A stretch of DNA of 64,000 nt from Escherichia phage vB_EcoS-26175I. Location of the stretch: sequence record NC_133255.1; one strand, given 5' to 3'. The notes under the pieces were generated by a model. The model was given only the letters and a program-made list of their open reading frames with translations, did no database searches and was not told the origin of the DNA. Positions within the stretch are counted from its first letter, which is position 1. Each line of letters starts with the position of its first letter. Positions 26,538-41,042 of this stretch are shown one piece after another. Position numbers and translations under genes: made by a program.

Positions 26538-26543
26538 AGTATT

Positions 26544-26619: not shown

Positions 26620-26627
26620 ATAATTTT

Positions 26628-26828: not shown

Positions 26829-26851
26829 ATTTTATTTCCCGTTTAAGTTAG

Positions 26852-26927: not shown

Positions 26928-26933
26928 AATATT

Positions 26934-27010
26934 TGGGGTGACTAGTGGAATTCGAATCCACATAGGCCTGATTCACAATCAGGATCATTAACCAATTATG
27001 ATATAGCCAC
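26934..27010 (-). tRNA. tRNA-His (anticodon GUG), discriminator C
   Basis: Hand-folded: anticodon stem CCTGA/TCAGG, loop TTGTGAA. Confidence 0.6.
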
Positions 27011-27188
27011 AATTGAAATCTCTAGTTATCCCTTTCGTAGGGGCTAAAGGGCGATACCCATCCTAAAGACTTCAATTGTGGCGGCTCTCCGAAACTCATC
27101 ACACTAACAACTAGTTGATTACTTCTGGATTCTCGCCCAGAAAATTCTCTAGAAAGGTGCACCGTTACTCTTTGAGCCATTGAATATC

Positions 27189-27320
27189 AAGAAGTAGAAG
27201 GACTCGAACCTTCACGAGATAGACCATTTATCTCAGCCTCGTTTTCGGGTATCTTATGAGGAGTGGATGTTCCCCTTACGCCCTTTAGGAAGCCCCGTCT
27301 ACCGATTCCGGCATACTTCA
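27189..27320 (-). ncRNA. tRNA-like element with canonical T-arm (GAAGG-TTCGAGT-CCTTC) but no cloverleaf I could complete
   Basis: T-arm at 27197-27213; no 5' acceptor partner within normal tRNA length. Confidence 0.25.
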
Positions 27321-27325
27321 AGATT

Positions 27326-27413
27326 TGGCAGAAGATAATGGAGTCGAACCATCACCGTATCACTACAGCGGGCCGGTTTTCAAGACCGGTTACGTACCAC
27401 TACGTCCTATCTT
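27326..27413 (-). tRNA. tRNA-Ser (anticodon UGA), class II with long variable arm
   Basis: Hand-folded: anticodon stem CCGGT/ACCGG, loop CTTGAAA; 88 nt; acceptor AGAAGAT/ATCTTCT. Confidence 0.6.
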
Positions 27414-27770
27414 CTATTGTTCGTATATTACAAAGTTTACAGATTCAGAGTAATAACCATTACTAGAACCATGCCATTTAACGGTTACACAGCCTTTAGC
27501 TGTGGCAAACTTATACCATGTATGGGTTACTGAATCCCAATCTTCTGTAGCGTGTGTGATTACTTCCTCTGCTTCTATGATTGGATAACCTAAAAGGTCA
27601 TGTAAATCACCAATAATATCATCTATATGAACATCTTCACAGCAGTCCTGCTCATGATAAAACTTATAGTTCTTACCATCAGTACAAATGAAGATAAGAG
27701 TATCTTGGTCTTGGCATACATTAGTAAAAATTTTGCCAAGCATTTCATTATAGATTGTCACTTCTGACAT
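27414..27770 (-). CDS. hypothetical acidic protein
   Basis: 118-aa ORF. Confidence 0.5.
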   Translation of the reverse strand: MSEVTIYNEMLGKIFTNVCQDQDTLIFICTDGKNYKFYHEQDCCEDVHIDDIIGDLHDLLGYPIIEAEEVITHATEDWDSVTHTWYKFATAKGCVTVKWHGSSNGYYSESVNFVIYEQ

Positions 27771-27792
27771 ATTAGTTTCCTAGTAAGTTGTT

Positions 27793-27882
27793 TGGCGGAA
27801 GAAGAGAGATTCGAACTCTCAAGCCGTTTTACCAGTCAGCCACTTTCCAAGCGGTTTTCGTCACCTATCGATTTGCTCTTCC
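27793..27882 (-). tRNA. tRNA-Ser (anticodon GGA), class II
   Basis: Hand-folded: loop TTGGAAA; 90 nt; acceptor GGAAGAG/TTCTTCC. Confidence 0.5.
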
Positions 27883-28057
27883 GTAGATCTCAGGATTAAA
27901 TCATAAACTTCATTAGCGGATACTGGAAGTATGAGATTATACATCTTTTGGTCATACCTCTGACCATACTCTATAAACACATACTCTTTAGTTAATGTAT
28001 TAACAGCTAACCAGATATCAGTTATAGGAGTTTTCATCATGAGTTAATCCAATGTTT

Positions 28058-28138
28058 GGTAGGGATGGAGGGACTCGAACCCACACCCGAAGACTAGAAC
28101 CTAAATCTAGCGCGTCTGCCAATTTCGCCACATCCCCA
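28058..28138 (-). tRNA. tRNA-Leu (anticodon UAG)
   Basis: Hand-folded: anticodon stem CTAGA/TCTAG, loop TTTAGGT; 81 nt. Confidence 0.45.
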
Positions 28139-28144
28139 TTTTAT

Positions 28145-28363
28145 TTAGTTAGAAATAAATAATAATCCCGCAACAATAGAACCTACGCCACTGAATACCA
28201 TTATCAGCATAGCTTCTAAGCTGATAAAGCGGACAGTATATGGAGCGCCCCAAGAATAATCAGTAAAGAAAGTTTTCTTTTCTTTAGCTAAATCTTTAAT
28301 AGTTCTAAAATAGATAGCTAGTGCTAAAGCTGCAAGAACTACAGAGGCTGCTAAGAATACCAT
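28145..28363 (-). CDS. small membrane protein
   Basis: 72-aa ORF with two transmembrane segments. Confidence 0.45.
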   Translation of the reverse strand: MVFLAASVVLAALALAIYFRTIKDLAKEKKTFFTDYSWGAPYTVRFISLEAMLIMVFSGVGSIVAGLLFISN

Positions 28364-28382
28364 ATTATTTCCTTAATTTGTT

Positions 28383-28458
28383 TGGTGGAGTCACTCAGAA
28401 TTGAACTGAGTTCCACTGCTTGCAAGGCAGTAAGTTTAACCAAATAACCTATGACCCC
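28383..28458 (-). tRNA. tRNA-Ala (anticodon UGC) with G3:U70
   Basis: Hand-folded: anticodon stem ACTGC/GCAGT, loop CTTGCAA; acceptor GGGGTCA with G3-U70 identity pair. Confidence 0.6.
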
Positions 28459-28463
28459 GAATT

Positions 28464-28542
28464 TGGTGGAGAATAAGAGATTCGAACTCTTCTGATATCC
28501 TCGGTGCAAGCGAGGTGTCCACTCCAAGCAGACCCATTCCCC
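28464..28542 (-). tRNA. second UGC-anticodon tRNA (Ala-like, G3:U70, 11-nt D-loop, 7-nt variable region)
   Basis: Hand-folded: anticodon stem CCTCG/CGAGG, loop CTTGCAC. Confidence 0.4.
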
Positions 28543-28551
28543 AAAATTTAT

Positions 28552-28815
28552 TTATTCTCTATACATATCGAGAACAGTTGCTACAATCTGAGCTTCTAGC
28601 CTAGCAATATCTTTATTCACTATATCAGATTCTACTACTAAGTGATTATATATTGCTTCAGTTTTAGCAAGATCTATATCAGATAGTTTATTAAGACTAT
28701 TATAATACTTAGCATTATTGCAACGTTTCTTCATATCGGAAACTCGTTTATGGAGGGTTCTTTGTTGATAACGTTGCGACATTAGTTTCTTAGCCATATC
28801 TTTAAGATCAAACAT
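28552..28815 (-). CDS. hypothetical protein
   Basis: 87-aa ORF. Confidence 0.45.
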   Translation of the reverse strand: MFDLKDMAKKLMSQRYQQRTLHKRVSDMKKRCNNAKYYNSLNKLSDIDLAKTEAIYNHLVVESDIVNKDIARLEAQIVATVLDMYRE

Positions 28816-29080
28816 AGATATTCCTTCTAGTTTACTAAGGCTATTAGCTCGGTGTGCGTATTACCCTCAGACATTAGCCAGTAGAGGATAACCGCTCTTC
28901 ACAAACCCGATACACTATTCAGTTGCCGCTGAATCTAGTGGACTAATCTAGAACTTATTGCAAAGTATCCCCTGCCATTAGGGGTCTAATTGCAATTGTG
29001 CTTTTTGGCAGCCAGTCCTAGGTCGAGCTAATACCTTAGTGAACTTTGATGAGGATTTCTCCTCATCAATTTATATAAAT

Positions 29081-29109
29081 ATTATAACAAGAAATTAAGC
29101 ATCAAGCAA
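29081..29109 (-). promoter_or_regulatory. early sigma70 promoter (TTGCTT / TATAAT)
   Basis: Same module; followed by about 265 bp without an ORF. Confidence 0.55.
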
Positions 29110-29461
29110 GTACATTTTTAGCGATTTCTTGTAGTTCCTTAACGTCGCTAACGAAAAGGTAATCAGAGCTTCCAGAGTGCATACTCTGCATAACCACACC
29201 ATCCTCTGGTGCATCTTCCTTCAAAGTAAGTCCTAACCAGAACTTGGCAAAACCAGGTGTTACCTCACCTTGACTTGCCTTGAACACATCGCCTTCTGTG
29301 ATCTCTTGACCAGTAGAGAGTCCCATGTATGGTACGTTCAGATCAATATCTTTGTAGAACTCAGCTAGATCTTGCTCGAAATCCCAACCTTTAGAGATAG
29401 CGAACTCCATTGTTACATGACCGAAATAGCCTTGAACCTTGCTTGATAATTGCATTTGCAA
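29102..29461 (-). CDS. hypothetical protein
   Basis: 119-aa ORF. Confidence 0.55.
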   Translation of the reverse strand: MQMQLSSKVQGYFGHVTMEFAISKGWDFEQDLAEFYKDIDLNVPYMGLSTGQEITEGDVFKASQGEVTPGFAKFWLGLTLKEDAPEDGVVMQSMHSGSSDYLFVSDVKELQEIAKNVLA

Positions 29462-29480
29462 TTCCTTATTTTGAGTTAAT

Positions 29481-29554
29481 TGGTACTCGGTGATAGAATC
29501 GAACTATCGCAACCGCCGTGTAAAGACGGGGTTCTCCCATTAAACTAACCGAGT
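29481..29554 (-). tRNA. tRNA-Val (anticodon UAC)
   Basis: Hand-folded: loop TTTACAC, T-arm GATAG-TTCGATT-CTATC. Confidence 0.55.
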
Positions 29555-29558
29555 AATT

Positions 29559-29635
29559 TGGTGGATTGCCTGGGATTCGAACCCAGAACTGACGGATTAA
29601 AGGTCCGCTACTCTTATCCAGTTGAGCTAGCAATC
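29559..29635 (-). tRNA. tRNA-Lys (anticodon UUU), loop CCTTTAA with C at position 33
   Basis: Aligns arm by arm with E. coli tRNA-Lys except C33 in place of U33. Confidence 0.6.
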
Positions 29636-30100
29636 CAATTTTTCTACTAATAATTTAAAAGCATCTAGTACAGGTACTTCAAACCATTCTCCAGATACTC
29701 TATAATCTTTAAGAAGATTATGTAATTCTTTCTCTGTACGTCTTTTATCAGACGAAAATCTGAAATGGTATAGCTTGTAGTCTCTATTAGGTGAATAAGT
29801 TTGATAACTTGCTAACCTCTCATTCACATCTATAGTCATACCTATTTTATACATGCCTGGCCATGCTGGATTACCAATTACATATACAAAACCTTCCGTT
29901 ATAGGTATTTTATGCTCCCTTTTATACTTTAAGAGATTTAAGGCTGCCATTCGATAACAGAATCTAAACTCTGAAGTTTTTAACTTACCTTCTTTACCCG
30001 AAATTTCGTTATATTTGCTCATATAAGCTCTTATGAGCTTATCATCTATAATGAAGTTATCAGGAAGGTTTAAGGCAGCTAAAACTTTATTAATTAGCAT
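29627..30100 (-). CDS. T5orf172-domain protein (GIY-YIG-like putative homing endonuclease)
   Basis: GFVYVIGNPAWPGMYKIGMT...RL motif typical of the T5orf172 / MUG113 family. Confidence 0.6.
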   Translation of the reverse strand: MLINKVLAALNLPDNFIIDDKLIRAYMSKYNEISGKEGKLKTSEFRFCYRMAALNLLKYKREHKIPITEGFVYVIGNPAWPGMYKIGMTIDVNERLASYQTYSPNRDYKLYHFRFSSDKRRTEKELHNLLKDYRVSGEWFEVPVLDAFKLLVEKLDC

Positions 30101-30277
30101 AGACTTCCTTAATAGAATAAACTTTTAAGTAAGGGTGATTAATACCAAATTCCGCCATCACTTCGTTTTCATCTTTACCGTAATGGGCTAGTGGATACTT
30201 CTTACGATCTTTGCTAGAACGTAGATCACTTACTTTTAAACGAAATAATTTCATTTCGAAATCCTTCTATTAAATTG

Positions 30278-30354
30278 GAAGCGGGTGCAGGAATCGAACC
30301 TACCTCTTTCTAGCTTATGAGACTAGCGATCTCTACCAGAGATCTAACCCGCAA
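30278..30354 (-). tRNA. tRNA-Met/Ile2 (anticodon CAU)
   Basis: Hand-folded: loop CTCATAA; 1:72 mismatch. Confidence 0.45.
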
Positions 30355-30359
30355 TTGTT

Positions 30360-30437
30360 TGGTCTCCGTGGGAGGATTTGAACCCCCGACCCTACCGCCC
30401 CAAACGGAACGCTCTGGCCAAACTGAGCTACACGGAG
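30360..30437 (-). tRNA. tRNA-Pro (anticodon UGG)
   Basis: Hand-folded: loop TTTGGGG, acceptor CTCCGTG/CACGGAG. Confidence 0.55.
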
Positions 30438-30469
30438 AATATTCTTTGTTAACTCACTTTATAAAATAT

Positions 30470-30498
30470 ATTATACAGATATTTAAGCATAATAGCAA
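30470..30498 (-). promoter_or_regulatory. early sigma70 promoter (TTGCTA / TATAAT) driving a tRNA operon
   Basis: Same module, directly upstream of tRNA genes. Confidence 0.55.
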
Positions 30499-30744
30499 AT
30501 GAGTTTTTAATAAATTTACTTATTGCGTAGGCCACCTCACGCTTCAAACGCTCTGCTGACAAAGAAGTTTGCGAGACTTCTCTTAAATGCCAGAATAGAC
30601 CCGCCGATCTATCGGAACCTACTCAATAAGTAAACTTTCGTTTACCTACACCTACCTGGTCGGGAGGATTTTCAGCGACTAGAACCGGCCGGAAACTCAT
30701 CGCCTTGTTTATCTAGGAGTCCGTTCTCTAGGAAGCAGAAACCT

Positions 30745-30818
30745 AAATTTGGTGCGGTCGGAGGGAATCGAACCCTCAACTTCTGGTTGGCAACCAAAAA
30801 TTATACCTTTTAACTACG
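30745..30818 (-). tRNA. tRNA-Gly (anticodon GCC)
   Basis: Hand-folded: loop TTGCCAA, T-arm GAGGG-TTCGATT-CCCTC. Confidence 0.55.
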
Positions 30819-30825
30819 AACGCAT

Positions 30826-30955
30826 AATAAGTCAATCTAGGCAGGACTTGAACCTGCTATCACTTGTGCGGATTTACGAGAACCATTCTTTCACTCGAAT
30901 CGAACGAGCTTCTACCCTCGGCAAGCTGGTGTCCCCTCTCCACCACGCTAGAATG
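30826..30955 (-). ncRNA. two tRNA-like T-arm elements without complete cloverleaves (pseudo-tRNAs or small RNAs)
   Basis: GCAGG-ACTTGAA-CCTGC at 30836-30852 and ACTCG-AATCGAA-CGAGC at 30888-30904; no matching acceptor stems. Confidence 0.25.
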
Positions 30956-30956
30956 T

Positions 30957-31034
30957 TTAATTGGTACACCTGCTGAGATTCAAACTCAGGATCTTCCGAT
31001 TAAGAGTCGGTTGCTTTAAGTCAACTAAGCTACA
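30957..31034 (-). tRNA. tRNA with loop CTCTTAA (anticodon CUU, Lys)
   Basis: Hand-folded: D-stem GCTT/AAGC, T-arm CTGAG-TTTGAAT-CTCAG. Confidence 0.45.
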
Positions 31035-31579
31035 GATGCATTTATATCTTTATAGGACTTACCAGCCAGTCTTGTATAGCGTTTTCGCAAACCATTATCT
31101 GACATGCCCAATTCTCTAGAAGCTCTAGACCATGAGTAATTTTTAACCCAGTACTCTATTTGTTCTACAGTAATTTCTTGTGGATTTTGACAGTGCTGTT
31201 TGCAGTAACTAGCTCTTTTAGCTATTTCTTTGTTGCAAATAGGACAGAAATTTTTATCTGAACTTAATCCACGTTCTTCTATAGTTTTGAGAATATGATC
31301 AGCTTTACTTCGTACAATCAGATTTTCAAGAGAGAAATTTAGTTTATTTGTATCATCATGATCTACTTCTAAGTCAGAACTCAAAGATGGTAGATCTTTG
31401 TATACTCTCGCTAATACTCTGTGTAATAGAAGATGTTTTGATTTTCCATTATGTTGAACAGTAAAGAAAGGATACCCAGAAGTATTAATCTGTATTGAAA
31501 GTATACGATTAACTTTAGTACTAAATACTTCCCCAGTCTCACTTATTAAGTATTCTGGATATTCGGGTATTTCTTTCAT
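31025..31579 (-). CDS. HNH homing endonuclease
   Basis: HRVLARVY...EVDHDDTNKLNFSLENL HNH core; 184 aa; inserted among tRNA genes. Confidence 0.7.
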   Translation of the reverse strand: MKEIPEYPEYLISETGEVFSTKVNRILSIQINTSGYPFFTVQHNGKSKHLLLHRVLARVYKDLPSLSSDLEVDHDDTNKLNFSLENLIVRSKADHILKTIEERGLSSDKNFCPICNKEIAKRASYCKQHCQNPQEITVEQIEYWVKNYSWSRASRELGMSDNGLRKRYTRLAGKSYKDINASVA

Positions 31580-31595
31580 TACTGTTCCTTATAAT

Positions 31596-31672
31596 TTGGC
31601 GCGACCGATGGGATTCGAACCCACATTCTCTCCCGTGACAGGGGAGTACCATTACCAAGCCAGCCCCGATCG
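31596..31672 (-). tRNA. tRNA-Asp (anticodon GUC)
   Basis: Hand-folded: perfect anticodon stem CTCCC/GGGAG, loop CTGTCAC. Confidence 0.6.
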
Positions 31673-31682
31673 CATAATTTGT

Positions 31683-31868
31683 TTACTCAGCTTTGAGTTT
31701 TTCGATAGCTTCCTCAACCTCTTTTAGAGCTTCACGACGCTCTACTTGACCTTGAAGTTCTTCAAGAAGTTCAGCTTTCAGAGCCTTAATAATATTACCA
31801 CGAACCTTAATATTATTAATCAGATTATCACGATCAGCTTCTAGTCGAGCAATTGCACGAGTTGTCAT
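31683..31868 (-). CDS. small coiled-coil protein
   Basis: 61-aa ORF. Confidence 0.4.
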   Translation of the reverse strand: MTTRAIARLEADRDNLINNIKVRGNIIKALKAELLEELQGQVERREALKEVEEAIEKLKAE

Positions 31869-31895
31869 ATCTATTTCCTCAGTTGTTAGTGAAAT

Positions 31896-31981
31896 TGGCG
31901 GGCCGTGTAGGAGTTGAACCTACTTTATCCTTGCGGATACGGATTAACAGTCCGGCGCTTAAACCGTTCAGCCAACGGCCC
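31896..31981 (-). tRNA. class II (long variable arm, Tyr-like body) tRNA with anticodon loop CTGTTAA (GUU)
   Basis: 86 nt; acceptor GGGCCGT/ACGGCCC; 3-bp D-stem; loop differs from the Tyr loop CTGTAAA at one position. Confidence 0.4.
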
Positions 31982-31988
31982 TAAAATT

Positions 31989-32064
31989 TGGACGACCGCA
32001 TGAGATTCGAACTCACATAAGGAGGTTTTGCAGGCCTCCGCCTAAGCCATTCAGCCAACGGTCG
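31989..32064 (-). tRNA. tRNA-Cys (anticodon GCA), discriminator U
   Basis: Hand-folded: loop CTGCAAA. Confidence 0.55.
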
Positions 32065-32242
32065 ATTTATCTTGTTTTTCGAGATTAGTAAATTCTAAGT
32101 CTTTGGAATGCCCTATAGATCTAGCATAATAACCATCTCCAGCATCGTAGCCTGATTTACCACACTCACACATCTTAAACTCCCGATAACGAGTGAATAT
32201 ATGCTCAGAACCACAACACTTAAATTTAACTAACATTTTCAT
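32051..32242 (-). CDS. small Cys-rich protein
   Basis: 63-aa ORF; its 3' end overlaps the tRNA-Cys call. Confidence 0.35.
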   Translation of the reverse strand: MKMLVKFKCCGSEHIFTRYREFKMCECGKSGYDAGDGYYARSIGHSKDLEFTNLEKQDKSTVG

Positions 32243-32481
32243 GAAACACGCTCCGGTAGATCTTCTAATTTATACTCAGTAGCTACATTAGTAGCGTCTA
32301 GTAATAAACCCATATGTTTAAGGATTTTAGTAATAGATTCGCCTTCAGCTTCTTCTACAAAAGTGCGTAGTTGAATGAAGTCAATACCACCATCCATACC
32401 AGAGAAAATGTTTAGTAAGCGAAGCATTACCAGCTTACGTTCTTTTAATTCTTGTTCTGTCATGTTGCTTCTCCAGTTCAA
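32239..32481 (-). CDS. hypothetical protein
   Basis: 80-aa ORF. Confidence 0.45.
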   Translation of the reverse strand: MNWRSNMTEQELKERKLVMLRLLNIFSGMDGGIDFIQLRTFVEEAEGESITKILKHMGLLLDATNVATEYKLEDLPERVS

Positions 32482-32493
32482 TTTATGTAATAA

Positions 32494-32521
32494 TTATACA
32501 GAACTTTAAGGATTTAAGCAA
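32494..32521 (-). promoter_or_regulatory. early sigma70 promoter (TTGCTT / TATAAT)
   Basis: Same module. Confidence 0.5.
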
Positions 32522-32801
32522 CTACATTTTTCAGAAATTTGATGCCTTTCTTTTTCTTCTTATATTTCCACGTTAACGGGTTCTGTCGATTATGAACGCT
32601 TGAGATCTTTGTCTCGTCAAAGTTCTTCAATACCATGTAATCACATGCCAACTGCTCTAGTGGAATGGTTTCTCCATCAAAAGCATAAACATAAGGCTGT
32701 TGACTAGCACGATAATGATAGACTTTGTTAATTCTACATTTCAGCGACTTATCCGCGCAGTAAATAAAGAAGTTTTCAGGATGCATCAGCATCTCCTTCA
32801 A
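32514..32801 (-). CDS. hypothetical protein
   Basis: 95-aa ORF. Confidence 0.45.
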   Translation of the reverse strand: MKEMLMHPENFFIYCADKSLKCRINKVYHYRASQQPYVYAFDGETIPLEQLACDYMVLKNFDETKISSVHNRQNPLTWKYKKKKKGIKFLKNVVA

Positions 32802-32803
32802 AT

Positions 32804-32878
32804 TGGTGCACCCTGTTCGTATCGAACGAACCTCTCAAGCTCTTCAGGCAAGCGCTAATCCATCTCAGCTAAAGGTGC
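32804..32878 (-). tRNA. tRNA, possibly Phe (anticodon GAA) with a weak anticodon stem
   Basis: T-arm GTTCG-TTCGATA-CGAAC, acceptor GCACCTT/AGGGTGC; loop CTGAAGA. Confidence 0.35.
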
Positions 32879-32884
32879 AAATAT

Positions 32885-32962
32885 TGGCAAACCTACTAGG
32901 ACTCGAACCTAGACCGTACGGTTTTGGAGACCGACATGCTGTCCAGTAACACTCTAGGAATG
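32885..32962 (-). tRNA. tRNA-Trp (anticodon CCA), acceptor stem imperfect
   Basis: Anticodon arm CGGT-CTCCAAA-ACCG, T-arm CTAGG-TTCGAGT-CCTAG. Confidence 0.4.
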
Positions 32963-32969
32963 CAGAAAT

Positions 32970-33046
32970 TGGCGTCCTGTGCGGGGATCGAACCCGCAAA
33001 TCCTACCTTGAAAGGGTAGTGACTTTACCAGTTTGTCTAACAGGAC
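32970..33046 (-). tRNA. tRNA-Glu (anticodon UUC)
   Basis: Perfect acceptor GTCCTGT/ACAGGAC; anticodon stem CTACC/GGTAG, loop CTTTCAA. Confidence 0.65.
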
Positions 33047-33053
33047 TTAAATT

Positions 33054-33134
33054 TGGTGGGGGATGGAGGACTCGAACCTCCGCGTGGTATACCCGGTCTA
33101 CAGCCAGGCGCCGTCGCCACTGAGCCAATCCCCC
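33054..33134 (-). tRNA. tRNA-Tyr (anticodon GUA)
   Basis: Acceptor GGGGGAT/ATCCCCC; anticodon arm CCTGG-CTGTAGA-CCGGG; 81 nt. Confidence 0.5.
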
Positions 33135-33260
33135 CCTATTTGAATGAAAAGTAAGTCGGTTAAACTCAAGGTGGAATATTTCAGGATTTCCTGACTTTAC
33201 CCCTAAAAGTCAACTCGCTTAATTACTTCTCATTCAGATATGTTTCCAAATTAGATAACT

Positions 33261-33289
33261 ATTATATCAAGTTTTATGGCACTGAGCAA
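33261..33289 (-). promoter_or_regulatory. early sigma70 promoter (TTGCTC / TATAAT) upstream of a tRNA operon
   Basis: Same module; -35 lies inside a 12-bp perfect inverted repeat. Confidence 0.5.
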
Positions 33290-33318
33290 GTCAAATTTTA
33301 AAGAACTTGCTCAGTGCT
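33278..33318. promoter_or_regulatory. 12-bp perfect inverted repeat GCACTGAGCAAG...CTTGCTCAGTGC overlapping the promoter -35 (candidate operator)
   Basis: Read from sequence; 17-nt spacer; no T-run, so not a typical terminator. Confidence 0.4.
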
Positions 33319-33325
33319 GTATTAG

Positions 33326-33601
33326 TTAGTCGAACTTAGGAGTGACAGTTAAGGAGAACGGAAGTTCAAAAACTTCTTCACCCTCATCACTAACAGTGAT
33401 TACACGACCTTTAAGTTCAGACATTGAAATATCAATATCAGCTTTTGCATCTGGAGCCATGCCAGCTTCAACACATTTAGCTTTAATTTCCGGCAGAAGT
33501 TCTACATCATAGAAATAAAGCCATTCAATCTCACCTTCCCAGCCTTCCCAGGATTTACAGATTGCACTTTCAATACCAGTTGTTATAACACGATTTTGCA
33601 T
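33326..33601 (-). CDS. hypothetical protein
   Basis: 91-aa ORF. Confidence 0.5.
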   Translation of the reverse strand: MQNRVITTGIESAICKSWEGWEGEIEWLYFYDVELLPEIKAKCVEAGMAPDAKADIDISMSELKGRVITVSDEGEEVFELPFSLTVTPKFD

Positions 33602-33631
33602 TCGTTAACTCCTTCATCAATTTATATAACT

Positions 33632-33661
33632 ATTATACCAGAAATTTAAAGCAAAAGGCAA
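33632..33661 (-). promoter_or_regulatory. early sigma70 promoter
   Basis: Same module; -35 TTGCCT-like. Confidence 0.45.
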
Positions 33662-33691
33662 GTACATTTTTAAAAATTCTGTTTGGAGGAG

Positions 33692-33898
33692 CTAAACTCC
33701 AGATTCTTCAGCCAGATCAAGCCCAACCAATGTGATTGCCATAATAGCCGCGCCATGTTCTTTCTCTCCTAGCTCTTTGGCTTGAGTGAGAATATTTAGG
33801 AACTGCTTGTGGAAATCTTCCACTTCTTCTGTCATGCCTGCTTCAGAAATAATACCTTTCAGCATAAAGCGCTGTGCAGTAATTTCAGGATTAGCCAT
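33692..33898 (-). CDS. hypothetical protein
   Basis: 68-aa ORF. Confidence 0.4.
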   Translation of the reverse strand: MANPEITAQRFMLKGIISEAGMTEEVEDFHKQFLNILTQAKELGEKEHGAAIMAITLVGLDLAEESGV

Positions 33899-34049
33899 TT
33901 ATTATCTCCAGTTATTTAGAATGTAAGCCAAACTTAGGATCATAGCGATCATAAGTCGTACCATTAGTTGAAGTCTTGATGCTATGAAAACGACAGTACA
34001 TAAATTTACGTAGTGCTTTCTTAATAGCTTTCATTTTATTTCCTTAATT

Positions 34050-34126
34050 TGGTAGGGGTGGTGGGATTCGAACCCACAAAACCTGAATTTTAAGTCCAGT
34101 ACCTATGCCAATTCGATTACACCCCC
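34050..34126 (-). tRNA. class I tRNA with anticodon loop CTTAAAA (UAA, Leu-type anticodon on a short-variable-arm body)
   Basis: Acceptor GGGGGTG/CACCCCT, T-arm GTGGG-TTCGAAT-CCCAC, anticodon stem CTGGA/TTCAG. Confidence 0.4.
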
Positions 34127-34135
34127 ATGTAATCT

Positions 34136-34483
34136 TTAGAGTTCGTAACCCTGAATATATCGAGCAAAACCAGTAATCTCGAACTGAATTGCCCATGCTA
34201 CTTCCATATGCTCAATCTTACTAAAATGAGCGTCAGACTGTTCTAGGAAATAACGAGAGATTATAGGGAACTCAATGTCAAAATCTTCCTTATCCATACC
34301 ATAGAAGAAGTTTCCAGAAATATTACGAACTTCACGAAAGAAATCCTCAATCTGAAAATCCATCAGAGGATAAGTATATTCCTCTTTGCTATCATCCGTT
34401 TGGAAGAAGCGGAAATGCACAAGGCAAGAGCCAATCAGATTTACTGCTGGAGTAGTGTAAATATCCATGTTAACCTCGATCAA
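34136..34483 (-). CDS. hypothetical protein
   Basis: 115-aa ORF. Confidence 0.5.
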   Translation of the reverse strand: MIEVNMDIYTTPAVNLIGSCLVHFRFFQTDDSKEEYTYPLMDFQIEDFFREVRNISGNFFYGMDKEDFDIEFPIISRYFLEQSDAHFSKIEHMEVAWAIQFEITGFARYIQGYEL

Positions 34484-34655
34484 TATCTAGAGAAATTCCA
34501 AATTCTGGATTAATACCAGAACCATTACATGCTGCGCATTCCCACTCTTCAAAACGCATATCGCCAGGTTCAGCATCATTAATAGTACCTGTTCCATGGC
34601 AGTGAGTACACATGCACTCTTCTAGTTCTTGTTTAAGCTCTTGAAACTTAGACAT
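34470..34655 (-). CDS. small zinc-finger protein (CxxCxGxG repeats, DnaJ-like)
   Basis: CTHCHGTG and CAACNGSG motifs; 61 aa. Confidence 0.5.
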   Translation of the reverse strand: MSKFQELKQELEECMCTHCHGTGTINDAEPGDMRFEEWECAACNGSGINPEFGISLDIDRG

Positions 34656-34672
34656 ATAGTCTCCTAGTTAAT

Positions 34673-34750
34673 TGGTGGCTCCCGGAGGATTCGAACCTAC
34701 CTACCTTTCGCTTATGAGGCGACGGCTCATACCAAATGAGCTTGAGAACC
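34673..34750 (-). tRNA. tRNA-Met/Ile2 (anticodon CAU)
   Basis: D-stem GCTC/GAGC, loop CTCATAA, T-arm GTAGG-TTCGAAT-CCTCC. Confidence 0.5.
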
Positions 34751-34755
34751 AAATT

Positions 34756-34844
34756 TGGAGGAAGAAGTGGGAATCGAACCCACAAGGCTATGTTTCAAAC
34801 CGACAGATTAGCAATCTGCTGCAATACCGTTATGCTATTCTTCC
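34756..34844 (-). tRNA. tRNA-Ser (anticodon GCU), class II
   Basis: 89 nt; perfect acceptor GGAAGAA/TTCTTCC; loop TTGCTAA; long variable arm. Confidence 0.55.
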
Positions 34845-39008: not shown

Positions 39009-39083
39009 TGGCCGAGGTGACAGGATTCGAACCTGCATAAAGGAATTTAGAAGACTCCTGCCTATCCCTTAGACTACACCCCG
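39009..39083 (-). tRNA. tRNA-Arg (anticodon UCU)
   Basis: Acceptor CGGGGTG/CACCTCG, loop CTTCTAA, T-arm GCAGG-TTCGAAT-CCTGT. Confidence 0.55.
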
Positions 39084-39091
39084 AGAATAAA

Positions 39092-39601
39092 TTACTTAAT
39101 GATTTCGTTCAGTTTGGTTTGGCTTTCTAGCGCTGCTTTAGCTGATTTCTCAGCATCCCTAGCAGCACGTCGTGCTTTAGAGTCAATCAATAGCTTGTCA
39201 TACTTGATATTAACGAACTCTTTAATATCATGGTAGAAACGTTGATGTGCCATGTATTCTTGTGCATCTGCATCGTAACAGCGCATATAGAAGTAATCAC
39301 TAGGCTCTCCACGAAGTGTACGCTCTAGAATCTGAGGTCGATAACGACGTAATGTATCTTTCGCCATTTTTATTTCATCAGTTTCTTCACCAAGCTGAAC
39401 TAGGTGATAAAGACGAGTATTGTCGATGTAATCCAAAGCTACGCTAAAGTATTCACCTTCTCGAAGATTGTATCCTGTAATCTCACTCATTTTCTCACGA
39501 GCTTGATCAAGTGTCAGGCGTTCTGGAAAATGTGCTATATGCAGAATACGAGGGCAACACATTTCTTGATGATCAAAGATACAAGTTGTTCCTAGATTCA
39601 T
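39092..39601 (-). CDS. hypothetical protein
   Basis: 169-aa ORF. Confidence 0.55.
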   Translation of the reverse strand: MNLGTTCIFDHQEMCCPRILHIAHFPERLTLDQAREKMSEITGYNLREGEYFSVALDYIDNTRLYHLVQLGEETDEIKMAKDTLRRYRPQILERTLRGEPSDYFYMRCYDADAQEYMAHQRFYHDIKEFVNIKYDKLLIDSKARRAARDAEKSAKAALESQTKLNEIIK

Positions 39602-40560
39602 ATTGATTCCTTTTGTTAGGTATTTTTAAGAACTCTCGTAAAAGTCCTTAAAGATACCCGGCGGTAGGTAGGGTCAGCCCCCTCAGATTAAGCTCTGCAG
39701 CCCTTCCGTCAGACAATATCTTCCAGTTTAAGTCAGGGTGACTTTGTGGTTATTCAGCTAAGGCTGATCGGCAGCTCTTAGGTCATGACTCCTCGTCGCT
39801 CTTTACTCACCGGCTAGGAAGTTATCTCGAGTTCTTCCTAGCTCTTTAGTCGTGCCATTAAGGTGCCTTCTAAGAGACTTACCTTTTCCCACTTTCGATT
39901 TGGGCATGTATCAGGTAAGGGTAGCCAAATCAGCATCCTAGTCCTACGGGGTCTCATCAAATTACATACCACCGCTTTTCGATATGTAATGCCCATGTCT
40001 ATACGGGAGAAGAAAATGGGCATCTTTCTCTTCGTCTGATAGCTTGAAAAACGACTCCTCATGGAGGAAAAACTTCACTATCTAGGCTAAAGCCTAAAGT
40101 TCTTCTTTAATCCGGCAAAGCAAAACCGTAGTATATACTTTTCAGGAATGGTTGGTTAGTCTGGAACCAACTACCGCGTGGTTTTGGCAGTGCACAGCTG
40201 CCTGCGATTGCTTCGCCATTAGAAGCACCAGTTATCCAACTCTTTCCGACCGTGGGACTCGAACCCACATCTTCAGGCGGTGAAGCCCTAATAATACCTA
40301 TTATACTAGGACGGCAGTGTTGTTACATAAGTGGTTTCGGCACCCCACTAACATAAACTAGAGAAGAGTTTACGAGATTTCGGGACAGCTCCCGAGTTTT
40401 CCGCAGATTTTCAGTTCCCTATCAATAGCAATAAGCGTTAGCTCGTAGCCTCTCTCAGAGTACTTACTAGTCTCCAACTCACCGACTCTATTCAGTGGAA
40501 TAGCTATCCTAGTAGGAGTCACTAAACTCACTCAGCGTAATCGGCTCGCTGTTCTCTAAT
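39602..40560 (-). ncRNA. about 1 kb promoter-driven ORF-poor, relatively GC-rich stretch containing a tRNA-like 3' element (T-arm GTGGG-TTCGAGT-CCCAC at 40252-40268); candidate structured non-coding RNA
   Basis: Early promoter immediately upstream; only a junk-like 74-aa ORF inside. Confidence 0.3.
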
Positions 40561-40570
40561 TTATGAATCT

Positions 40571-40599
40571 ATTATACAGAATTTTGAAGCGTTTAGCAA
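40571..40599 (-). promoter_or_regulatory. early sigma70 promoter (TTGCTA / TATAAT)
   Basis: Same module; reads into the ORF-poor region. Confidence 0.55.
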
Positions 40600-40607
40600 A
40601 TCAATTT

Positions 40608-41042
40608 TTAATTAAATTCGCCAGCAACCTGAGCAGCAACTTTACCCTCGTAACGACCAGGAAACTCTTCCTTAATCGCTTTCATTAGCTGGCCTTTAGT
40701 GATTCCAGAATTTAATTTAACCAGTTCGGCAAAGTAATTACGAATCTGTACTTCTGATAACTGCTCTAACGCGTATTCGTATTCTAGACCCGCTAACAGA
40801 TCGAGATATTCAGCATCCGGAGTATATTCAATGTTTGCCTTTTCAGCAGCCGCCTGAGTATTTTCGATTGCTTTGAACTGCGATTTAATCCAGTTAGTAA
40901 ATTCTAACTTAGTTACGCAGTCCTTATCAATACGCTGCAAGTCACCTAAAATCGTACTTAGGTGCTTAACCGACACAGTGTCACCACGTTTGCGAGCAGC
41001 TTCAATCAACTCTCGCAGTACACGAATCATATTCGTACCCAT
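40608..41042 (-). CDS. hypothetical protein
   Basis: 144-aa ORF. Confidence 0.55.
   Translation of the reverse strand: MGTNMIRVLRELIEAARKRGDTVSVKHLSTILGDLQRIDKDCVTKLEFTNWIKSQFKAIENTQAAAEKANIEYTPDAEYLDLLAGLEYEYALEQLSEVQIRNYFAELVKLNSGITKGQLMKAIKEEFPGRYEGKVAAQVAGEFN

What the first reader, a model, noticed from the sequence alone, without database searches (positions are those of the whole stretch)
39602..40607. About 1 kb ORF-poor, GC-richer stretch driven by a consensus early promoter
In a genome where genes are packed end to end, the promoter at 40571-40599 reads into roughly 950 bp with no credible ORF, visibly higher GC than its surroundings, several hairpins and a tRNA-like 3' element. 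I considered tmRNA and could not find the required 5'/3' acceptor pairing. This is a candidate long structured non-coding RNA or a decayed gene.
Basis: seen in the sequence. Interest (0 to 1): 0.55.

Follow-up and report, generated by a model that had tools for sequence, protein, structure and literature searches.

The report
Large structured phage RNA (T5 RNAX family)
The ORF-free kilobase is a gene for a large, intricately folded non-coding RNA, with a built-in tRNA look-alike, that is conserved across T5-like phages; GenBank labels it 'RNAX' in phage T5, but I found no paper or RNA-family entry that describes it.

Summary
Window 39619-40564 (minus strand) has no conserved ORF, is modestly GC-richer than its flanks, and sits behind a T5-type early promoter.

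It is the ortholog of a 719-nt misc_RNA called 'RNAX' in the T5 GenBank record AY734508. That RNA lies between promoter P16-17 and tRNA-Arg, inside the dispensable st0 deletion.

Homologs of 640-1290 nt occur in more than 500 phage records of Demerecviridae, from Escherichia, Salmonella, Klebsiella, Pectobacterium, Proteus and Providencia.

- **Not coding.** Substitutions show no codon periodicity and most indels are out of frame.
- **Folded.** Two core modules are 98-99% base-paired, and 27 of 65 pairs show compensatory changes (0 of 500 shuffles reach this).
- **Architecture.** A terminal helix P1 starts at the transcription start. A 12-bp stalk carries a tRNA-like branch, which GenBank mis-annotates as tRNA-Sec. 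An invariant palindrome GUCAUGAC sits in a hairpin loop. A 17-bp hairpin closes the 3' end.
- **No known family.** No Rfam family matches apart from a weak tRNA hit.

Function is unknown. My best guess is a self-associating RNA scaffold or tRNA mimic, comparable in kind to GOLLD and ROOL. The decayed-gene reading is rejected.

The parts
40571..40599 (-). Sigma-70 early promoter (-35 TTGCTA, 17-nt spacer, -10 TATAAT), ortholog of T5 promoter P16-17
   Evidence: 10 of 12 matches. The orthologous site is annotated as promoter P16-17 in T5 and 'P16-17-like' in S114. DNA similarity to relatives begins here, not in the upstream gene.
39619..40564 (-). Whole predicted RNAX-family transcript, about 946 nt: predicted start A40564 to the end of the 3' terminal hairpin
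   Evidence: Start inferred from the -10 position and from helix P1. Extent taken from alignments with T5 RNAX and 40 other homologs. The ends have not been mapped experimentally.
40552..40564 (-). P1 helix, 5' strand (AUAAAUUAGAGAA), starting at the predicted +1
   Evidence: Pairs with 40365-40353: 13 bp, 93% canonical across 42 RNAs. Compensatory variants occur in other phages (GAGA/UCUC to GAUG/CAUC; G-C to A-U).
40353..40365 (-). P1 helix, 3' strand (UUCUCUAGUUUAU)
40366..40551 (-). Variable 5' domain enclosed by P1. It includes the conserved hairpin CAGCG-AGCCGAUUA-CGCUG at 40551-40533.
   Evidence: Present in most homologs. In T5 it is reduced to a bare hairpin, and in S113 it is replaced by an HNH endonuclease gene. 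The hairpin shows a G-C to A-U compensation in DU_PP_V and RP7.
40335..40346 (-). Near-invariant, apparently single-stranded motif GGGGUGCCGAAA (family consensus GGGGUGUSGAA)
   Evidence: Invariant columns in A3 and A5. Also kept in Proteus and Providencia phages.
40322..40334 (-). Stalk helix, 5' strand
   Evidence: 12 bp with 40240-40227. 99.8% of cells are paired, and 7 of the 12 pairs show changes on both sides.
40243..40316 (-). tRNA-like branch. It has a canonical T arm and a GG-containing D loop. The acceptor stem has 5 bp plus conserved G.A and U.U mismatches. The anticodon arm is only 3-4 bp with a 6-nt loop. It joins the stalk through the internal loop AACACUG / AAAGA.
   Evidence: Rfam tRNA 33 bits, ARAGORN 'SeC(tca)'. 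Structure and covariation. Replaced by a short hairpin in Priunavirus and Novosibvirus, and carries an extended arm in Sugarlandvirus.
40226..40240 (-). Stalk helix, 3' strand (GUUGGAUAACUGGUG)
40210..40226 (-). Hairpin GCUUC-UAAUGGC-GAAGC, followed by the conserved UCGC
   Evidence: 5 bp, 3 of them with compensatory changes (GCUUC/GAAGC, GCUUU/AAAGC, GGUUC/GAACC).
39799..40209 (-). Mosaic middle domain made of several hairpins. Relatives carry one of two alternative versions.
   Evidence: Block structure. Hairpins with compensatory changes (for example 40171-40151, 40097-40082, 39877-39858).
40047..40069 (-). Terminator-like hairpin plus U-run inside the RNA (UUCCUCCAUGAGGAG UCGUUUUU)
   Evidence: The surrounding 72 nt are 95.8% identical in Klebsiella phage Torridgeon. 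Whether it terminates transcription is unknown.
39781..39792 (-). Invariant GGAGUCAUGACC. The perfect palindrome GUCAUGAC is displayed in an 8-nt apical loop, making it a candidate self-complementary kissing loop.
   Evidence: Exactly one copy in all 42 distinct RNAs, and also in Proteus phage RP7. It is predicted to lie in the loop of a covarying hairpin in all 11 representatives folded. Closing stem: 3 pairs, 2 with both-side changes.
39730..39744 (-). Conserved hairpin AAGUCA-CCC-UGACUU, followed by AACUGGAA (39728-39721)
   Evidence: This module is duplicated in T5.
39619..39658 (-). 3' terminal hairpin, 17 bp
   Evidence: 100% of cells are paired and 3 pairs are compensatory. It is 92-100% identical even in Pectobacterium phage DU_PP_V. 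In most relatives it directly abuts tRNA-Arg.
39092..39601 (-). Context: a 169-aa ORF lying between the RNA and tRNA-Arg in this phage and in a subset of relatives
   Evidence: No Pfam or PHROG family. Absent at this position in T5, S114 and SB13.
39009..39083 (-). Context: genuine tRNA-Arg(UCU), downstream of the RNA in every lineage examined
   Evidence: 49.3 bits. Synteny.
40608..41042 (-). Context: upstream gene for a divergent YqeY-like protein (homolog of the GatB/GatE tail domain)
   Evidence: phrog_1460 at E 6e-39. PF09424 scores below its cut-off but is the top hit in 5 of 5 orthologs. A profile of 7 orthologs hits B. subtilis YqeY (1NG6) at E 5e-6 over its full length.

Best explanation
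**What it is (shown).** The stretch is a gene for a large, highly structured, non-coding RNA of about 946 nt in this phage. It is the ortholog of the RNA that the T5 GenBank record calls RNAX. It belongs to a family confined to T5-like phages (Demerecviridae) of Enterobacterales.

**How it is made (inferred).**
- Host RNA polymerase transcribes it from a strong T5-type early promoter.
- The first 13 nt pair with a distal segment to form helix P1. The RNA ends in a 17-bp hairpin. Both ends are therefore buried in helices, as in stable RNAs.
- In most relatives the 3' hairpin abuts tRNA-Arg, so RNase P cleavage of that tRNA would release the RNA.

**Fold (shown by covariation).**
- The fold is modular.
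- The universal core is a 12-bp stalk with the internal loop AACACUG/AAAGA and an adjacent hairpin.
- In most lineages the stalk carries a tRNA-shaped branch. Its elbow (T loop and D loop) is intact, but its anticodon arm cannot decode.

**Mechanism (inferred; my estimate is about 0.25-0.3).**
- It acts in trans as an RNA scaffold or decoy.
- It self-associates through the invariant self-complementary loop GUCAUGAC.
- It presents a tRNA-like elbow to tRNA-binding partners. These could be the YqeY-like protein encoded just upstream, RNase P or tRNA-modifying enzymes, or host tRNA-targeting defence nucleases.
- This would make it a functional analogue of the phage-borne GOLLD and ROOL RNAs of tRNA islands.

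**Dispensability.** It is not needed in the laboratory, because the viable T5 st0 deletion removes it.

The confidence value below refers to the claim that this is a structured ncRNA gene of the RNAX family.
For: **Identity**
- T5 record AY734508 annotates misc_RNA rnaX at 7168-7886, between promoter P16-17 and tRNA-Arg, inside the st0 deletion.
- The window aligns to it at 79.6% over 339 nt, plus the 3' blocks.
- Covariance model R1 scores T5 at 177 bits and the window at 172 bits.

**Conservation**
- 535 phage records match.
- Homologs occur in Tequintavirus, Epseptimavirus, Sugarlandvirus, Hongcheonvirus, Priunavirus and Novosibvirus.
- The upstream protein is only about 48% identical between the window phage and S114, while the RNA blocks are 91-96% identical.

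**Non-coding**
- Substitutions show no codon periodicity (p = 0.22-0.97), and indels are mostly out of frame.
- In the control coding gene, p = 0.011 to 3e-5 and every indel is in frame.

**Structure**
- Module 1: 29 pairs, 99.0% of cells paired, 15 pairs with changes on both sides, 0 of 500 shuffles as good, slid controls give 0-5.
- Module 2: 36 pairs, 97.7% paired, 12 pairs with both-side changes, 0 of 500 shuffles.
- G.U/A-U alternations fit only the minus-strand transcript.
- Minimum-free-energy z-score is -3.4.
- Untrained homologs are found at 65-70 bits, E 1e-17 to 6e-19, whereas true tRNAs score 25 bits or less.

**Palindromic loop**
- Invariant, one copy per RNA, and always predicted in an apical loop.

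**Analogy**
- GOLLD and ROOL are phage RNAs near tRNA islands. GOLLD has a conserved 3' region and a variable 5' region, sometimes carries tRNAs in its linker, and uses self-interacting kissing loops (PMC12286853).

**Possible partner**
- The upstream gene encodes a YqeY-like protein.
Against: - I have no expression data: no RNA-seq, Northern blot or mapped ends. The 'RNAX' label is a database annotation, and I found no paper behind it.
- In this window a 169-aa ORF separates the RNA from tRNA-Arg, so release by RNase P cannot define the 3' end here.
- A terminator-like hairpin at 40069-40047 could yield a shorter RNA species.
- The tRNA-like branch is missing in Proteus and Providencia phages. 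The YqeY-like gene is missing beside the RNA in Sugarlandvirus. Neither can therefore be essential to a function shared by the whole family.
- A palindrome could equally be a DNA site for a dimeric protein.
- Self-association and partner binding are inferences only.
- Long-range or pseudoknot contacts could not be established.
Confidence: 0.85

Rival explanations
1. It is a cis-acting leader. The structured region would be a 5' leader or processing platform that controls maturation or expression of the downstream tRNA-Arg and mRNA (the 169-aa ORF, the small ORF, the band-7 protein gene), and not a free-standing trans-acting RNA.
For: The region always lies upstream of tRNA-Arg, in the same orientation, with no canonical terminator between them. 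In this window the start codon of the next ORF lies 18 nt after the 3' hairpin, with its AAGGA ribosome-binding site in between. In T5 the first annotated terminator downstream is ter1, beyond T5p078.
Against: A leader of 0.64-1.3 kb with invariant loops, a tRNA-like branch and its own closing helices (P1 and the terminal hairpin) is far more than known leaders need. The distance and content between the RNA and tRNA-Arg vary from 0 nt to one or two ORFs, while the RNA core stays constant. The tRNA would in any case be cut away from the RNA by RNase P.
Confidence: 0.1
2. It is a decayed protein-coding gene (pseudogene).
For: The region is an ORF-free gap in a densely packed genome. Some annotators call short ORFs here, for example six in SB13.
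Against: No homolog in any lineage has an intact conserved ORF; the longest are 50-122 aa, in differing frames. The start codon of the window's 74-aa ORF is ACG in SB13 and FZ41. There is no codon periodicity, and most indels are out of frame. Conservation exceeds that of the neighbouring real gene. Compensatory pairing is extensive.
Confidence: 0.01
3. The only functional part is a true tRNA (tRNA-Sec or an opal suppressor, as GenBank annotates it), and the rest is spacer or tRNA-gene debris.
For: ARAGORN calls tRNA-SeC(tca), and Rfam tRNA scores 33 bits, above the gathering score of 29. The region lies in a tRNA island of 30 tRNA genes. Several records annotate tRNA-Sec, tRNA-Pro or tRNA-OTHER here.
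Against: The anticodon arm is a 3-4 bp stem with a 6-nt loop whose 'anticodon' differs between homologs, or it is a long extra arm in Sugarlandvirus. The G.A and U.U mismatches in the acceptor stem are conserved. A covarying 12-bp stalk sequesters both flanks. The branch is replaced by a plain hairpin in Priunavirus and Novosibvirus while the flanks stay conserved. Homologs score 26.6-38 bits, against 40-74 bits for the phages' real tRNAs. No other tRNA remnants are detected even at E up to 10. The non-tRNA parts are the best-conserved parts.
Confidence: 0.03
4. It is a divergent member of the GOLLD or ROOL family, not a separate family.
For: It shares their ecological setting (phage, tRNA island), their size class, the layout of a variable 5' part and a conserved core, an embedded tRNA-like element, and a self-complementary loop.
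Against: Neither model (nor any other large-RNA family) matches the window or five homologs, even at E up to 5-10 with permissive filters. I did not align it to those consensus structures by any other method.
Confidence: 0.04
5. It is a DNA-level element, such as an origin, a nick or packaging signal, or an array of protein-binding sites. The palindrome would bind a dimeric protein, and conservation would act on the DNA.
For: GTCATGAC is a perfect DNA palindrome. T5 genomes carry site-specific nicks, and one is annotated about 1.1 kb away in T5.
Against: Covarying pairs include many G.U/A.U alternations, which are neutral only in RNA from the minus strand. Helices are maintained by compensatory change, not by sequence identity. 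A promoter points into the region, and helix P1 begins exactly at the predicted +1.
Confidence: 0.02

Closest known systems
Bacteriophage T5 'RNAX' (misc_RNA rnaX, GenBank AY734508, 7168-7886)
   Same: It is the ortholog. The promoter (P16-17), the orientation and the downstream tRNA-Arg are the same. The stalk, tRNA-like core, palindromic loop, AGUCACCUUGACU hairpin and 3' hairpin are all homologous.
   Different: T5 lacks the roughly 180-nt 5' domain, so its P1 is a bare hairpin. T5 has an 87-nt duplication of the AGUCACC hairpin module and abuts tRNA-Arg directly. The window RNA is about 225 nt longer and is followed by an ORF. RNAX is only a database label; I found no published characterisation.
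GOLLD RNA (Rfam RF01998)
   Same: It is a large (over 800 nt) ornate ncRNA of phages and prophages near tRNA islands, with a conserved 3' region and a variable 5' region. tRNAs sometimes sit inside it. It uses self-interacting kissing loops, and its function is unknown.
   Different: There is no match to the GOLLD covariance model. The host range differs (Enterobacterales phages). Multimer formation is untested here.
ROOL RNA (Rfam RF03087)
   Same: It is a phage or prophage RNA near tRNA islands, abundant but non-essential, that forms RNA-only multimers through kissing loops. The T5 st0 deletion likewise shows that RNAX is dispensable.
   Different: There is no match to the ROOL model. ROOL has no embedded tRNA-like branch according to the paper text I read.
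HIV-1 dimerisation initiation site and similar palindromic kissing loops (from my own knowledge)
   Same: A conserved self-complementary sequence is displayed in a small apical hairpin loop (here the 8-nt loop AGUCAUGA within GGAGUCAUGACC).
   Different: The biological context is entirely different, and dimerisation has not been demonstrated here.
Embedded tRNA mimics: the MALAT1 mascRNA element, bacterial Y RNA (YrlA) and tmRNA tRNA-like domains (from my own knowledge)
   Same: A tRNA-shaped module with an intact T arm and elbow sits inside a larger ncRNA and could recruit RNase P or other tRNA-binding factors.
   Different: ARAGORN finds no tmRNA here, and no Rfam family other than tRNA reaches E up to 10 in this stretch. 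The topology differs from YrlA, because here the connection runs through the acceptor stem. There is no tag ORF and there are no free acceptor ends as in tmRNA. Cleavage has not been tested.

Membership tests
T5 RNAX (GenBank misc_RNA) | Located between early promoter P16-17 and tRNA-Arg(UCU), on the same strand | tested here: met
   In the window one extra ORF lies between the RNA and tRNA-Arg.
T5 RNAX (GenBank misc_RNA) | Sequence and structure homology to the T5 RNAX sequence | tested here: met
   79.6% identity over 339 nt, plus the 3' blocks. Covariance model R1 scores 172 bits in the window and 177 bits in T5.
T5 RNAX (GenBank misc_RNA) | Accumulates as a stable RNA in infected cells | not testable with these tools
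   No expression data are available here. The public RNA-seq project PRJEB101990 (Tequintavirus Bas33) could be mapped.
Canonical tRNA (RF00005) | Covariance-model score above the gathering threshold | tested here: met
   33 bits against 29. This is marginal: homologs score 26.6-38.3 bits.
Canonical tRNA (RF00005) | 5-bp anticodon stem with a 7-nt loop and a conserved anticodon | tested here: not met
   The stem is 3-4 bp with a 6-nt loop (UUCACC here, GUAACU in most). Sugarlandvirus has a long extra arm, and Priunavirus and Novosibvirus have none.
Canonical tRNA (RF00005) | Fully paired 7-bp acceptor stem with processable free flanks | tested here: not met
   The G1.A72 and U5.U68 mismatches are conserved, and the flanks are locked in a covarying 12-bp helix.
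tmRNA | tRNA-like domain formed by the 5' and 3' ends, plus a tag reading frame | tested here: not met
   ARAGORN reports no tmRNA in the window. No Rfam family other than tRNA reaches E up to 10 here.
GOLLD (RF01998) | Match to the family covariance model (conserved 3' domain) | tested here: not met
   No hit at E up to 10 in the window, or up to 5 in five homologs.
GOLLD (RF01998) | Phage-borne, next to tRNA genes, over 600 nt, variable 5' part | tested here: met
GOLLD / ROOL | Assembles into RNA-only homo-oligomers | not testable with these tools
   The only indication is the invariant palindromic loop.
ROOL (RF03087) | Match to the family covariance model | tested here: not met
Other catalogued structured RNAs (group I/II introns, RNase P RNA, Y RNA/YrlA, riboswitches, T-box) | Match to any of the 4227 Rfam 15 models | tested here: not met
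   Only tRNA hits, plus one chance-level potC hit (20.7 bits against 44).
Protein-coding gene or pseudogene | Conserved ORF, codon-periodic substitutions, in-frame indels | tested here: not met
   with the positive control in the same call.

The most novel reading that the evidence does not exclude
RNAX-family RNAs could be a third, independently evolved class of self-assembling 'ornate' phage RNAs. Under this reading they form dimers or higher oligomers through the invariant GUCAUGAC kissing loop. They display tRNA-shaped elbows that capture a tRNA-binding partner, which could be the adjacent YqeY-like protein or a host tRNA-directed defence or processing enzyme. This would give the GOLLD/ROOL mystery a genetically tractable model in E. 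coli and T5.
Probability: 0.2. Interest if true: 0.9.

Novelty: new variant of a known kind. Interest (0 to 1): 0.72.

Why it matters
Large structured non-coding RNAs of 600 nt or more are rare, and most of them (GOLLD, ROOL, OLE, raiA) still lack a known function. Here there is strong comparative evidence for one in the T5 group, among the most-studied phages of E. coli.

The evidence I could find for its prior recognition is thin:
- T5's GenBank record carries an unexplained 'RNAX' label.
- The record that matches this window annotates only a 'tRNA-Sec' there.
- Other records annotate assorted pseudo-tRNAs, tiny hypothetical ORFs, or nothing.

Because the host and the phage are both tractable, several experiments are immediately feasible: deletion, complementation, structure probing, cryo-EM and pull-downs. 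These could show what phage-borne giant RNAs in tRNA islands actually do, including possible roles in tRNA economy or in countering tRNA-targeting defence systems.

There are also two practical gains:
- The recurrent 'tRNA-Sec/tRNA-OTHER' and phantom-ORF annotations in hundreds of Demerecviridae genomes can be corrected.
- The alignments and model made here could seed a new Rfam family.

Tried and rejected
1. **Rfam.** I ran gathering and permissive E-value scans on the window and on five homologs. Nothing appeared except tRNA.
2. **tmRNA.** ARAGORN finds none.
3. **Literature.** Seven full-text searches (T5 with RNAX, T5 transcriptome or ncRNA, st0 and tRNA genes, Tequintavirus or Demerecviridae ncRNA, new ornate RNA classes) found no description of this RNA. 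The BF23 paper and the Bas33 RNA-seq paper do not mention it.
4. **SleB hydrolase as a synteny anchor.** It is too widespread to be useful, with 1292 records across many phage families.
5. **Motif scans.**
   - The 14-nt motif AACACTGCCGNCCTA gave mostly chance hits in IMG/VR.
   - The T-arm/acceptor motif in metagenomes returned ordinary tRNAs and tRNA-derived repeats besides T5-like contigs.
   - Locus L039, on a 224-kb viral contig, is only a tRNA 3'-half-like fragment.
   - The universal-core motif gave 3 hits in bacterial genomes and 2 in metagenomic viral contigs, and all of them fail the covariance model.
6. **All-against-all covariation for long-range pairs or pseudoknots.** The signal was swamped by columns that vary together between clades, so it was uninformative. 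The long-range helices in the whole-RNA RNAalifold fold (for example 40346-40339 with 39679-39670) are therefore not claimed. A local hairpin there has better covariation support.
7. **Conserved D-stem in the tRNA-like branch.** I found no consistent pairing register by eye across lineages, so I left it unpaired in the model.
8. **PDB search with the single YqeY-like sequence.** It gave only noise. The 7-sequence profile was needed.
Full report
**Source and observation**

The window is 100% identical to Escherichia phage vB_EcoS-26175 (Epseptimavirus, a T5-like Demerecviridae phage).

The upstream gene stops at 40608, and the next start codon is at 39601. Between them, no ORF longer than 74 aa exists on either strand.

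GC content is 0.45-0.47, against 0.38-0.41 in the flanks. Comparable GC peaks occur in nearby coding DNA, so this is a weak signal.

The promoter-like site TTGCTA-17-TATAAT lies at 40599-40571 on the minus strand. The scan as a whole is not enriched over shuffles. The site is nevertheless orthologous to the annotated T5 early promoter P16-17.

From my own knowledge, the sequence downstream of the -10 box (AGATTC-ATAAATTAGAGA) resembles the classic strong T5 early promoters such as PN25. This places +1 at A40564.

ARAGORN and Rfam find a weak tRNA-like element at 40316-40243 (33 bits against a gathering score of 29; called 'SeC tca'). It lies in the 5' third of the region, not at its 3' end as the finding says. 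No tmRNA is found.

**What GenBank already says**

A distant BLAST search hit T5 record AY734508. This 8.2-kb segment is the part missing from the T5 st0 deletion mutant. It annotates a 719-nt misc_RNA, 'rnaX / RNAX', running from promoter P16-17 to the base before tRNA-Arg.

The window aligns to it at 79.6% identity over 339 nt, plus the 3' blocks. The st0 genome itself (AY692264) matches only the promoter (hit H99). The RNA is therefore dispensable for laboratory growth.

I found no paper describing RNAX. No Rfam family covers it either, in the window or in five homologs, even at permissive thresholds.

The record that matches this window annotates only a 'tRNA-Sec' in this stretch. Other records annotate 'tRNA-OTHER', 'tRNA-Pro', strings of tiny hypothetical ORFs, or nothing.

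**Distribution**

535 phage records match the region. I retrieved homologs from the following lineages:

| Lineage | Examples |
|---|---|
| Tequintavirus | T5, phiLLS |
| Epseptimavirus | S114, SB13 and others |
| Unclassified Markadamsvirinae | Enterobacter phage KKP_3711 |
| Sugarlandvirus | Klebsiella phages FZ41, Torridgeon |
| Hongcheonvirus (Mccorquodalevirinae) | Pectobacterium phage DU_PP_V |
| Priunavirus | Providencia phages PR1, PSTCR5 |
| Novosibvirus | Proteus phage RP7 |

- **Length.** From the -10 box to the 3' hairpin, lengths range from about 640 to about 1295 nt.
- **Synteny.** In all lineages the RNA points towards a downstream tRNA-Arg. It either abuts the tRNA or is separated from it by one or two inserted ORFs.
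- **Outside the family.** Motif scans of IMG/VR, JGI metagenomes and 185,579 bacterial and archaeal genomes, filtered with the covariance model, recovered only Demerecviridae-like sequences.
- **Relative conservation.** The RNA is better conserved than its protein-coding neighbour. Between this phage and S114 the upstream protein is about 48% identical, while the RNA blocks are 91-96% identical. DNA similarity begins at the promoter.

**It is not coding**

- In alignments of the window RNA with nine homologs, substitutions are evenly spread over the three phases (chi-square p = 0.22-0.97).
- Most indels are not multiples of three (for example 0 of 11, 1 of 10, 4 of 28).
- In the same test, the upstream coding gene shows third-position excess (p = 0.011 to 3e-5), and all its indels are in frame.
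- The longest ORFs in homologs are 50-122 aa, in inconsistent frames.
- The ATG of the window's 74-aa ORF is ACG in SB13 and FZ41.

The decayed-gene reading is therefore rejected.

**It is structured**

*Module 1 (window 40377-40166, 39 distinct sequences).* RNAalifold predicts 29 pairs.
- 99.0% of cells are paired, against 90.4% in shuffles.
- 15 pairs have changes on both sides, against a shuffled mean of 8.0. No shuffle of 500 reaches the observed value.
- Sliding the partner by 1-3 columns gives only 0-5 such pairs and 31-43% pairing.

*Module 2 (window 39798-39617, 26 sequences).* It has 36 pairs.
- 97.7% of cells are paired.
- 12 pairs have both-side changes, and 0 of 500 shuffles reach this.

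*Strand.* Frequent G.U/A-U alternations fit only the minus-strand transcript.

*Whole RNA.* The window RNA folds with z = -3.4 against 20 shuffles.

*Independent test.* A covariance model of the core (R1; 151 positions, 30 pairs) gave these results:

| Target | Score | E-value |
|---|---|---|
| The window (its one full copy) | 172 bits | 2.3e-47 |
| Genuine tRNAs | 25 bits or less | - |
| Providencia and Proteus homologs, not used in training | 65-70 bits | 1e-17 to 6e-19 |

**Architecture (window coordinates, minus strand; verified)**

| Element | Coordinates | Notes |
|---|---|---|
| P1 helix | 40564-40552 with 40365-40353 | The first 13 nt of the transcript pair with a distal segment. Compensatory variants: GAGA/UCUC to GAUG/CAUC; G-C to A-U in KKP_3711 and DU_PP_V |
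| Variable 5' domain | 40551-40366 | Enclosed by P1. A bare hairpin in T5; replaced by an HNH homing-endonuclease gene in S113 |
| Near-invariant motif GGGGUG(C/U)(C/G)GAA | 40346-40335 | Apparently single-stranded |
| Stalk | 40334-40322 with 40240-40227 | 12 bp, 7 covarying pairs. Opens into the internal loop AACACUG / AAAGA |
| tRNA-like branch | 40316-40243 | Described below |
| Hairpin | 40226-40210 | GCUUC/GAAGC, GCUUU/AAAGC, GGUUC/GAACC |
| Mosaic middle domain | 40209-39799 | Two alternative versions among relatives. Contains a conserved terminator-like hairpin with a U-run at 40069-40047 |
| Palindromic loop GGAGUCAUGACC | 39792-39781 | Described below |
| Hairpin AAGUCA-CCC-UGACUU, then AACUGGAA | 39744-39721 | Duplicated in T5 |
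| 3' terminal hairpin | 39658-39619 | 17 bp; 92-100% identical even in Pectobacterium phages |

*The tRNA-like branch.*
- It has a canonical T arm and a GG-containing D loop, so its elbow is intact.
- Its acceptor stem has 5 bp, two of which covary, plus conserved G.A and U.U mismatches.
- Its anticodon arm is only 3-4 bp with a 6-nt loop.
- In Sugarlandvirus that arm is replaced by a longer hairpin.
- In Priunavirus and Novosibvirus the whole branch is replaced by a short stem-loop, while the stalk, the internal loop and the following hairpin stay conserved.

It is therefore a structural tRNA mimic grafted onto a universal core, not a decoding tRNA. The GenBank 'tRNA-Sec' calls are artefacts.

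*The palindromic loop.*
- The core GUCAUGAC is a perfect palindrome.
- It occurs exactly once in all 42 distinct RNAs, and also in Proteus phage RP7.
- In all 11 representatives folded, it sits in an 8-nt apical loop of a hairpin whose stem differs between lineages.
- The closing stem has 3 pairs, 2 of them with both-side changes.

**How it most likely works**

*Shown:*
- The region is a conserved, non-coding, heavily base-paired RNA gene behind an early-type promoter.
- Both ends of the RNA lie in helices.
- It carries an elbow-intact tRNA mimic and an invariant self-complementary loop.
- In T5 it is dispensable.

*Inferred:*
- The RNA accumulates as a stable early transcript.
- In phages where the terminal hairpin abuts tRNA-Arg, RNase P cleavage of the tRNA would create its 3' end.
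- In this phage a 169-aa ORF intervenes, so the 3' end is undefined. The RNA might also serve as that ORF's long leader.

*Mechanism I favour (about 0.25-0.3).* It is a trans-acting scaffold or decoy. It self-associates through the GUCAUGAC kissing loop and presents a tRNA-like elbow to a tRNA-binding partner.

- **One candidate partner is encoded immediately upstream.**
  - Gene 40608-41042 belongs to phrog_1460, described as 'tRNA amidotransferase'.
  - PF09424 (YqeY) is the top hit, though below its cut-off, in 5 of 5 orthologs.
  - A 7-sequence profile matches B. subtilis YqeY (PDB 1NG6) at E 5e-6 over its full length, with a faint hit to the GatE C-terminus.
  - From my own knowledge, the homologous GatB/GatE tail domain contacts the tRNA D-loop.
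- **Other candidates** are RNase P, tRNA-modifying enzymes, or host tRNA-cleaving defence nucleases. T5 is known to counter one such defence with its own tRNAs (the PARIS papers listed).
- **Caveats.**
  - The branch is absent in the Proteus and Providencia phages.
  - The YqeY-like gene is absent beside the RNA in Sugarlandvirus.
  - Neither can therefore be essential to a function shared by the whole family.

**Comparison with known systems**

The closest entity is T5 RNAX itself, which is the ortholog. The closest kinds are GOLLD and ROOL (PMC12286853). These are large ornate RNAs of phages and prophages near tRNA islands.
- They are non-essential, and their function is unknown.
- GOLLD has a conserved 3' region and a variable 5' region, and sometimes carries tRNAs in its linker.
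- Both assemble into RNA-only cages through kissing loops, some of them self-interacting.

RNAX resembles them in setting, size class, modularity, the embedded tRNA-like element and the palindromic loop. It fails their covariance models, so it is not a member of either family. It is not a tRNA, a tmRNA, an intron, RNase P RNA or a Y RNA by the tests run here.

**Novelty and verdict**

The locus carries a bare GenBank label in T5. As far as the searchable literature and Rfam 15 show, the family, its breadth, its architecture and its non-tRNA nature are undescribed.

I rate it a new variant (a new family) of a known kind, the large ornate phage ncRNAs. Interest is high because it sits in a classic, tractable E. 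coli phage.

The main gaps are expression data, mapped ends and any functional test. The mechanism remains conjecture.

Noticed in passing
window 40243-40316 (-): GenBank record MK907268, which is identical to this window, annotates this element as 'tRNA-Sec (tca)'. Relatives label it tRNA-Sec, tRNA-OTHER, tRNA-Pro or tRNA-Ser. It is an internal branch of the large RNA with a non-functional anticodon arm, so these look like systematic mis-annotations across Demerecviridae genomes.
   Followed up: yes
L132:429-926 (Salmonella phage S113; the SE7 locus L133 has the same flanking sequence): A 165-aa HNH homing endonuclease gene (PF13392, E 1e-11; phrog_99, E 1e-47) occupies the place of the RNA's 5' domain. 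The RNA gene therefore appears to be a target of, or to tolerate, homing-endonuclease insertion.
   Followed up: partly
window 39092-39601 (-): A 169-aa ORF with no Pfam or PHROG family lies between the RNA's 3' hairpin and tRNA-Arg. It is present in a subset of relatives (bobsandoy, oselot, STWB21, STG2, S132 and, in a 158-aa form, KKP_3711). It is absent in T5, S114 and SB13, where the hairpin abuts the tRNA.
   Followed up: partly
window 40608-41042 (-): The gene directly upstream of the promoter encodes a divergent stand-alone YqeY-like protein. A profile of 7 orthologs hits PDB 1NG6 at E 5e-6. The protein occurs beside the RNA in Markadamsvirinae and in Pectobacterium, Proteus and Providencia phages, but not beside it in Sugarlandvirus. 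Several records mislabel it 'recombination related exonuclease'.
   Followed up: partly
window 40047-40069 (-): A terminator-like hairpin with a U-run lies inside the RNA. The surrounding 72 nt are 95.8% identical in Klebsiella phage Torridgeon. It could generate a shorter RNA isoform of about 500 nt, or it could simply be a structural hairpin.
   Followed up: no
L004:7290-7410 (T5) and L161: T5 and one metagenomic relative carry a tandem duplication of about 87 nt of the AGUCACCUUGAC-AACUGGAA hairpin module. Other members have a single copy.
   Followed up: no
window 40209-39799 (-); L003, L007, L137: The middle of the RNA exists in two unrelated versions. One is shared by this phage, T5, phiLLS, SB13 and KKP_3711. 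The other is shared by S114, DU_PP_V and, in part, the Klebsiella phages, which also carry pieces of the first. This points to modular exchange by recombination within the RNA gene.
   Followed up: partly
L181:4500-4565 (Providencia phage PR1): In PR1 the stalk branch is a plain hairpin. However, a T-arm-like sequence (GAGAGGTTCGATTCCTCC), preceded by the palindrome CTCTAGAG, lies about 230 nt further upstream within the same ORF-poor stretch. A tRNA-like module may sit at a different position in this lineage.
   Followed up: no
L137:2507-2654 and window 30241-30393 (-): Covariance model R1 gives weak full-length matches (31.9 and 19.1 bits) that span genuine tRNAs together with their flanks. 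These may only reflect the tRNA-like part of the model.
   Followed up: no
window 25112-34844 and 39009-39083 (-): There are thirty tRNA genes, all on the minus strand, including three tRNA-Met, two tRNA-Gln, two tandem tRNA-Ala(UGC) and three tRNA-Ser. Of the tRNA genes in the window, tRNA-Arg(UCU) lies farthest upstream on the coding strand, about 4 kb from the main array. The RNA gene lies about 0.5 kb further upstream still.
   Followed up: no
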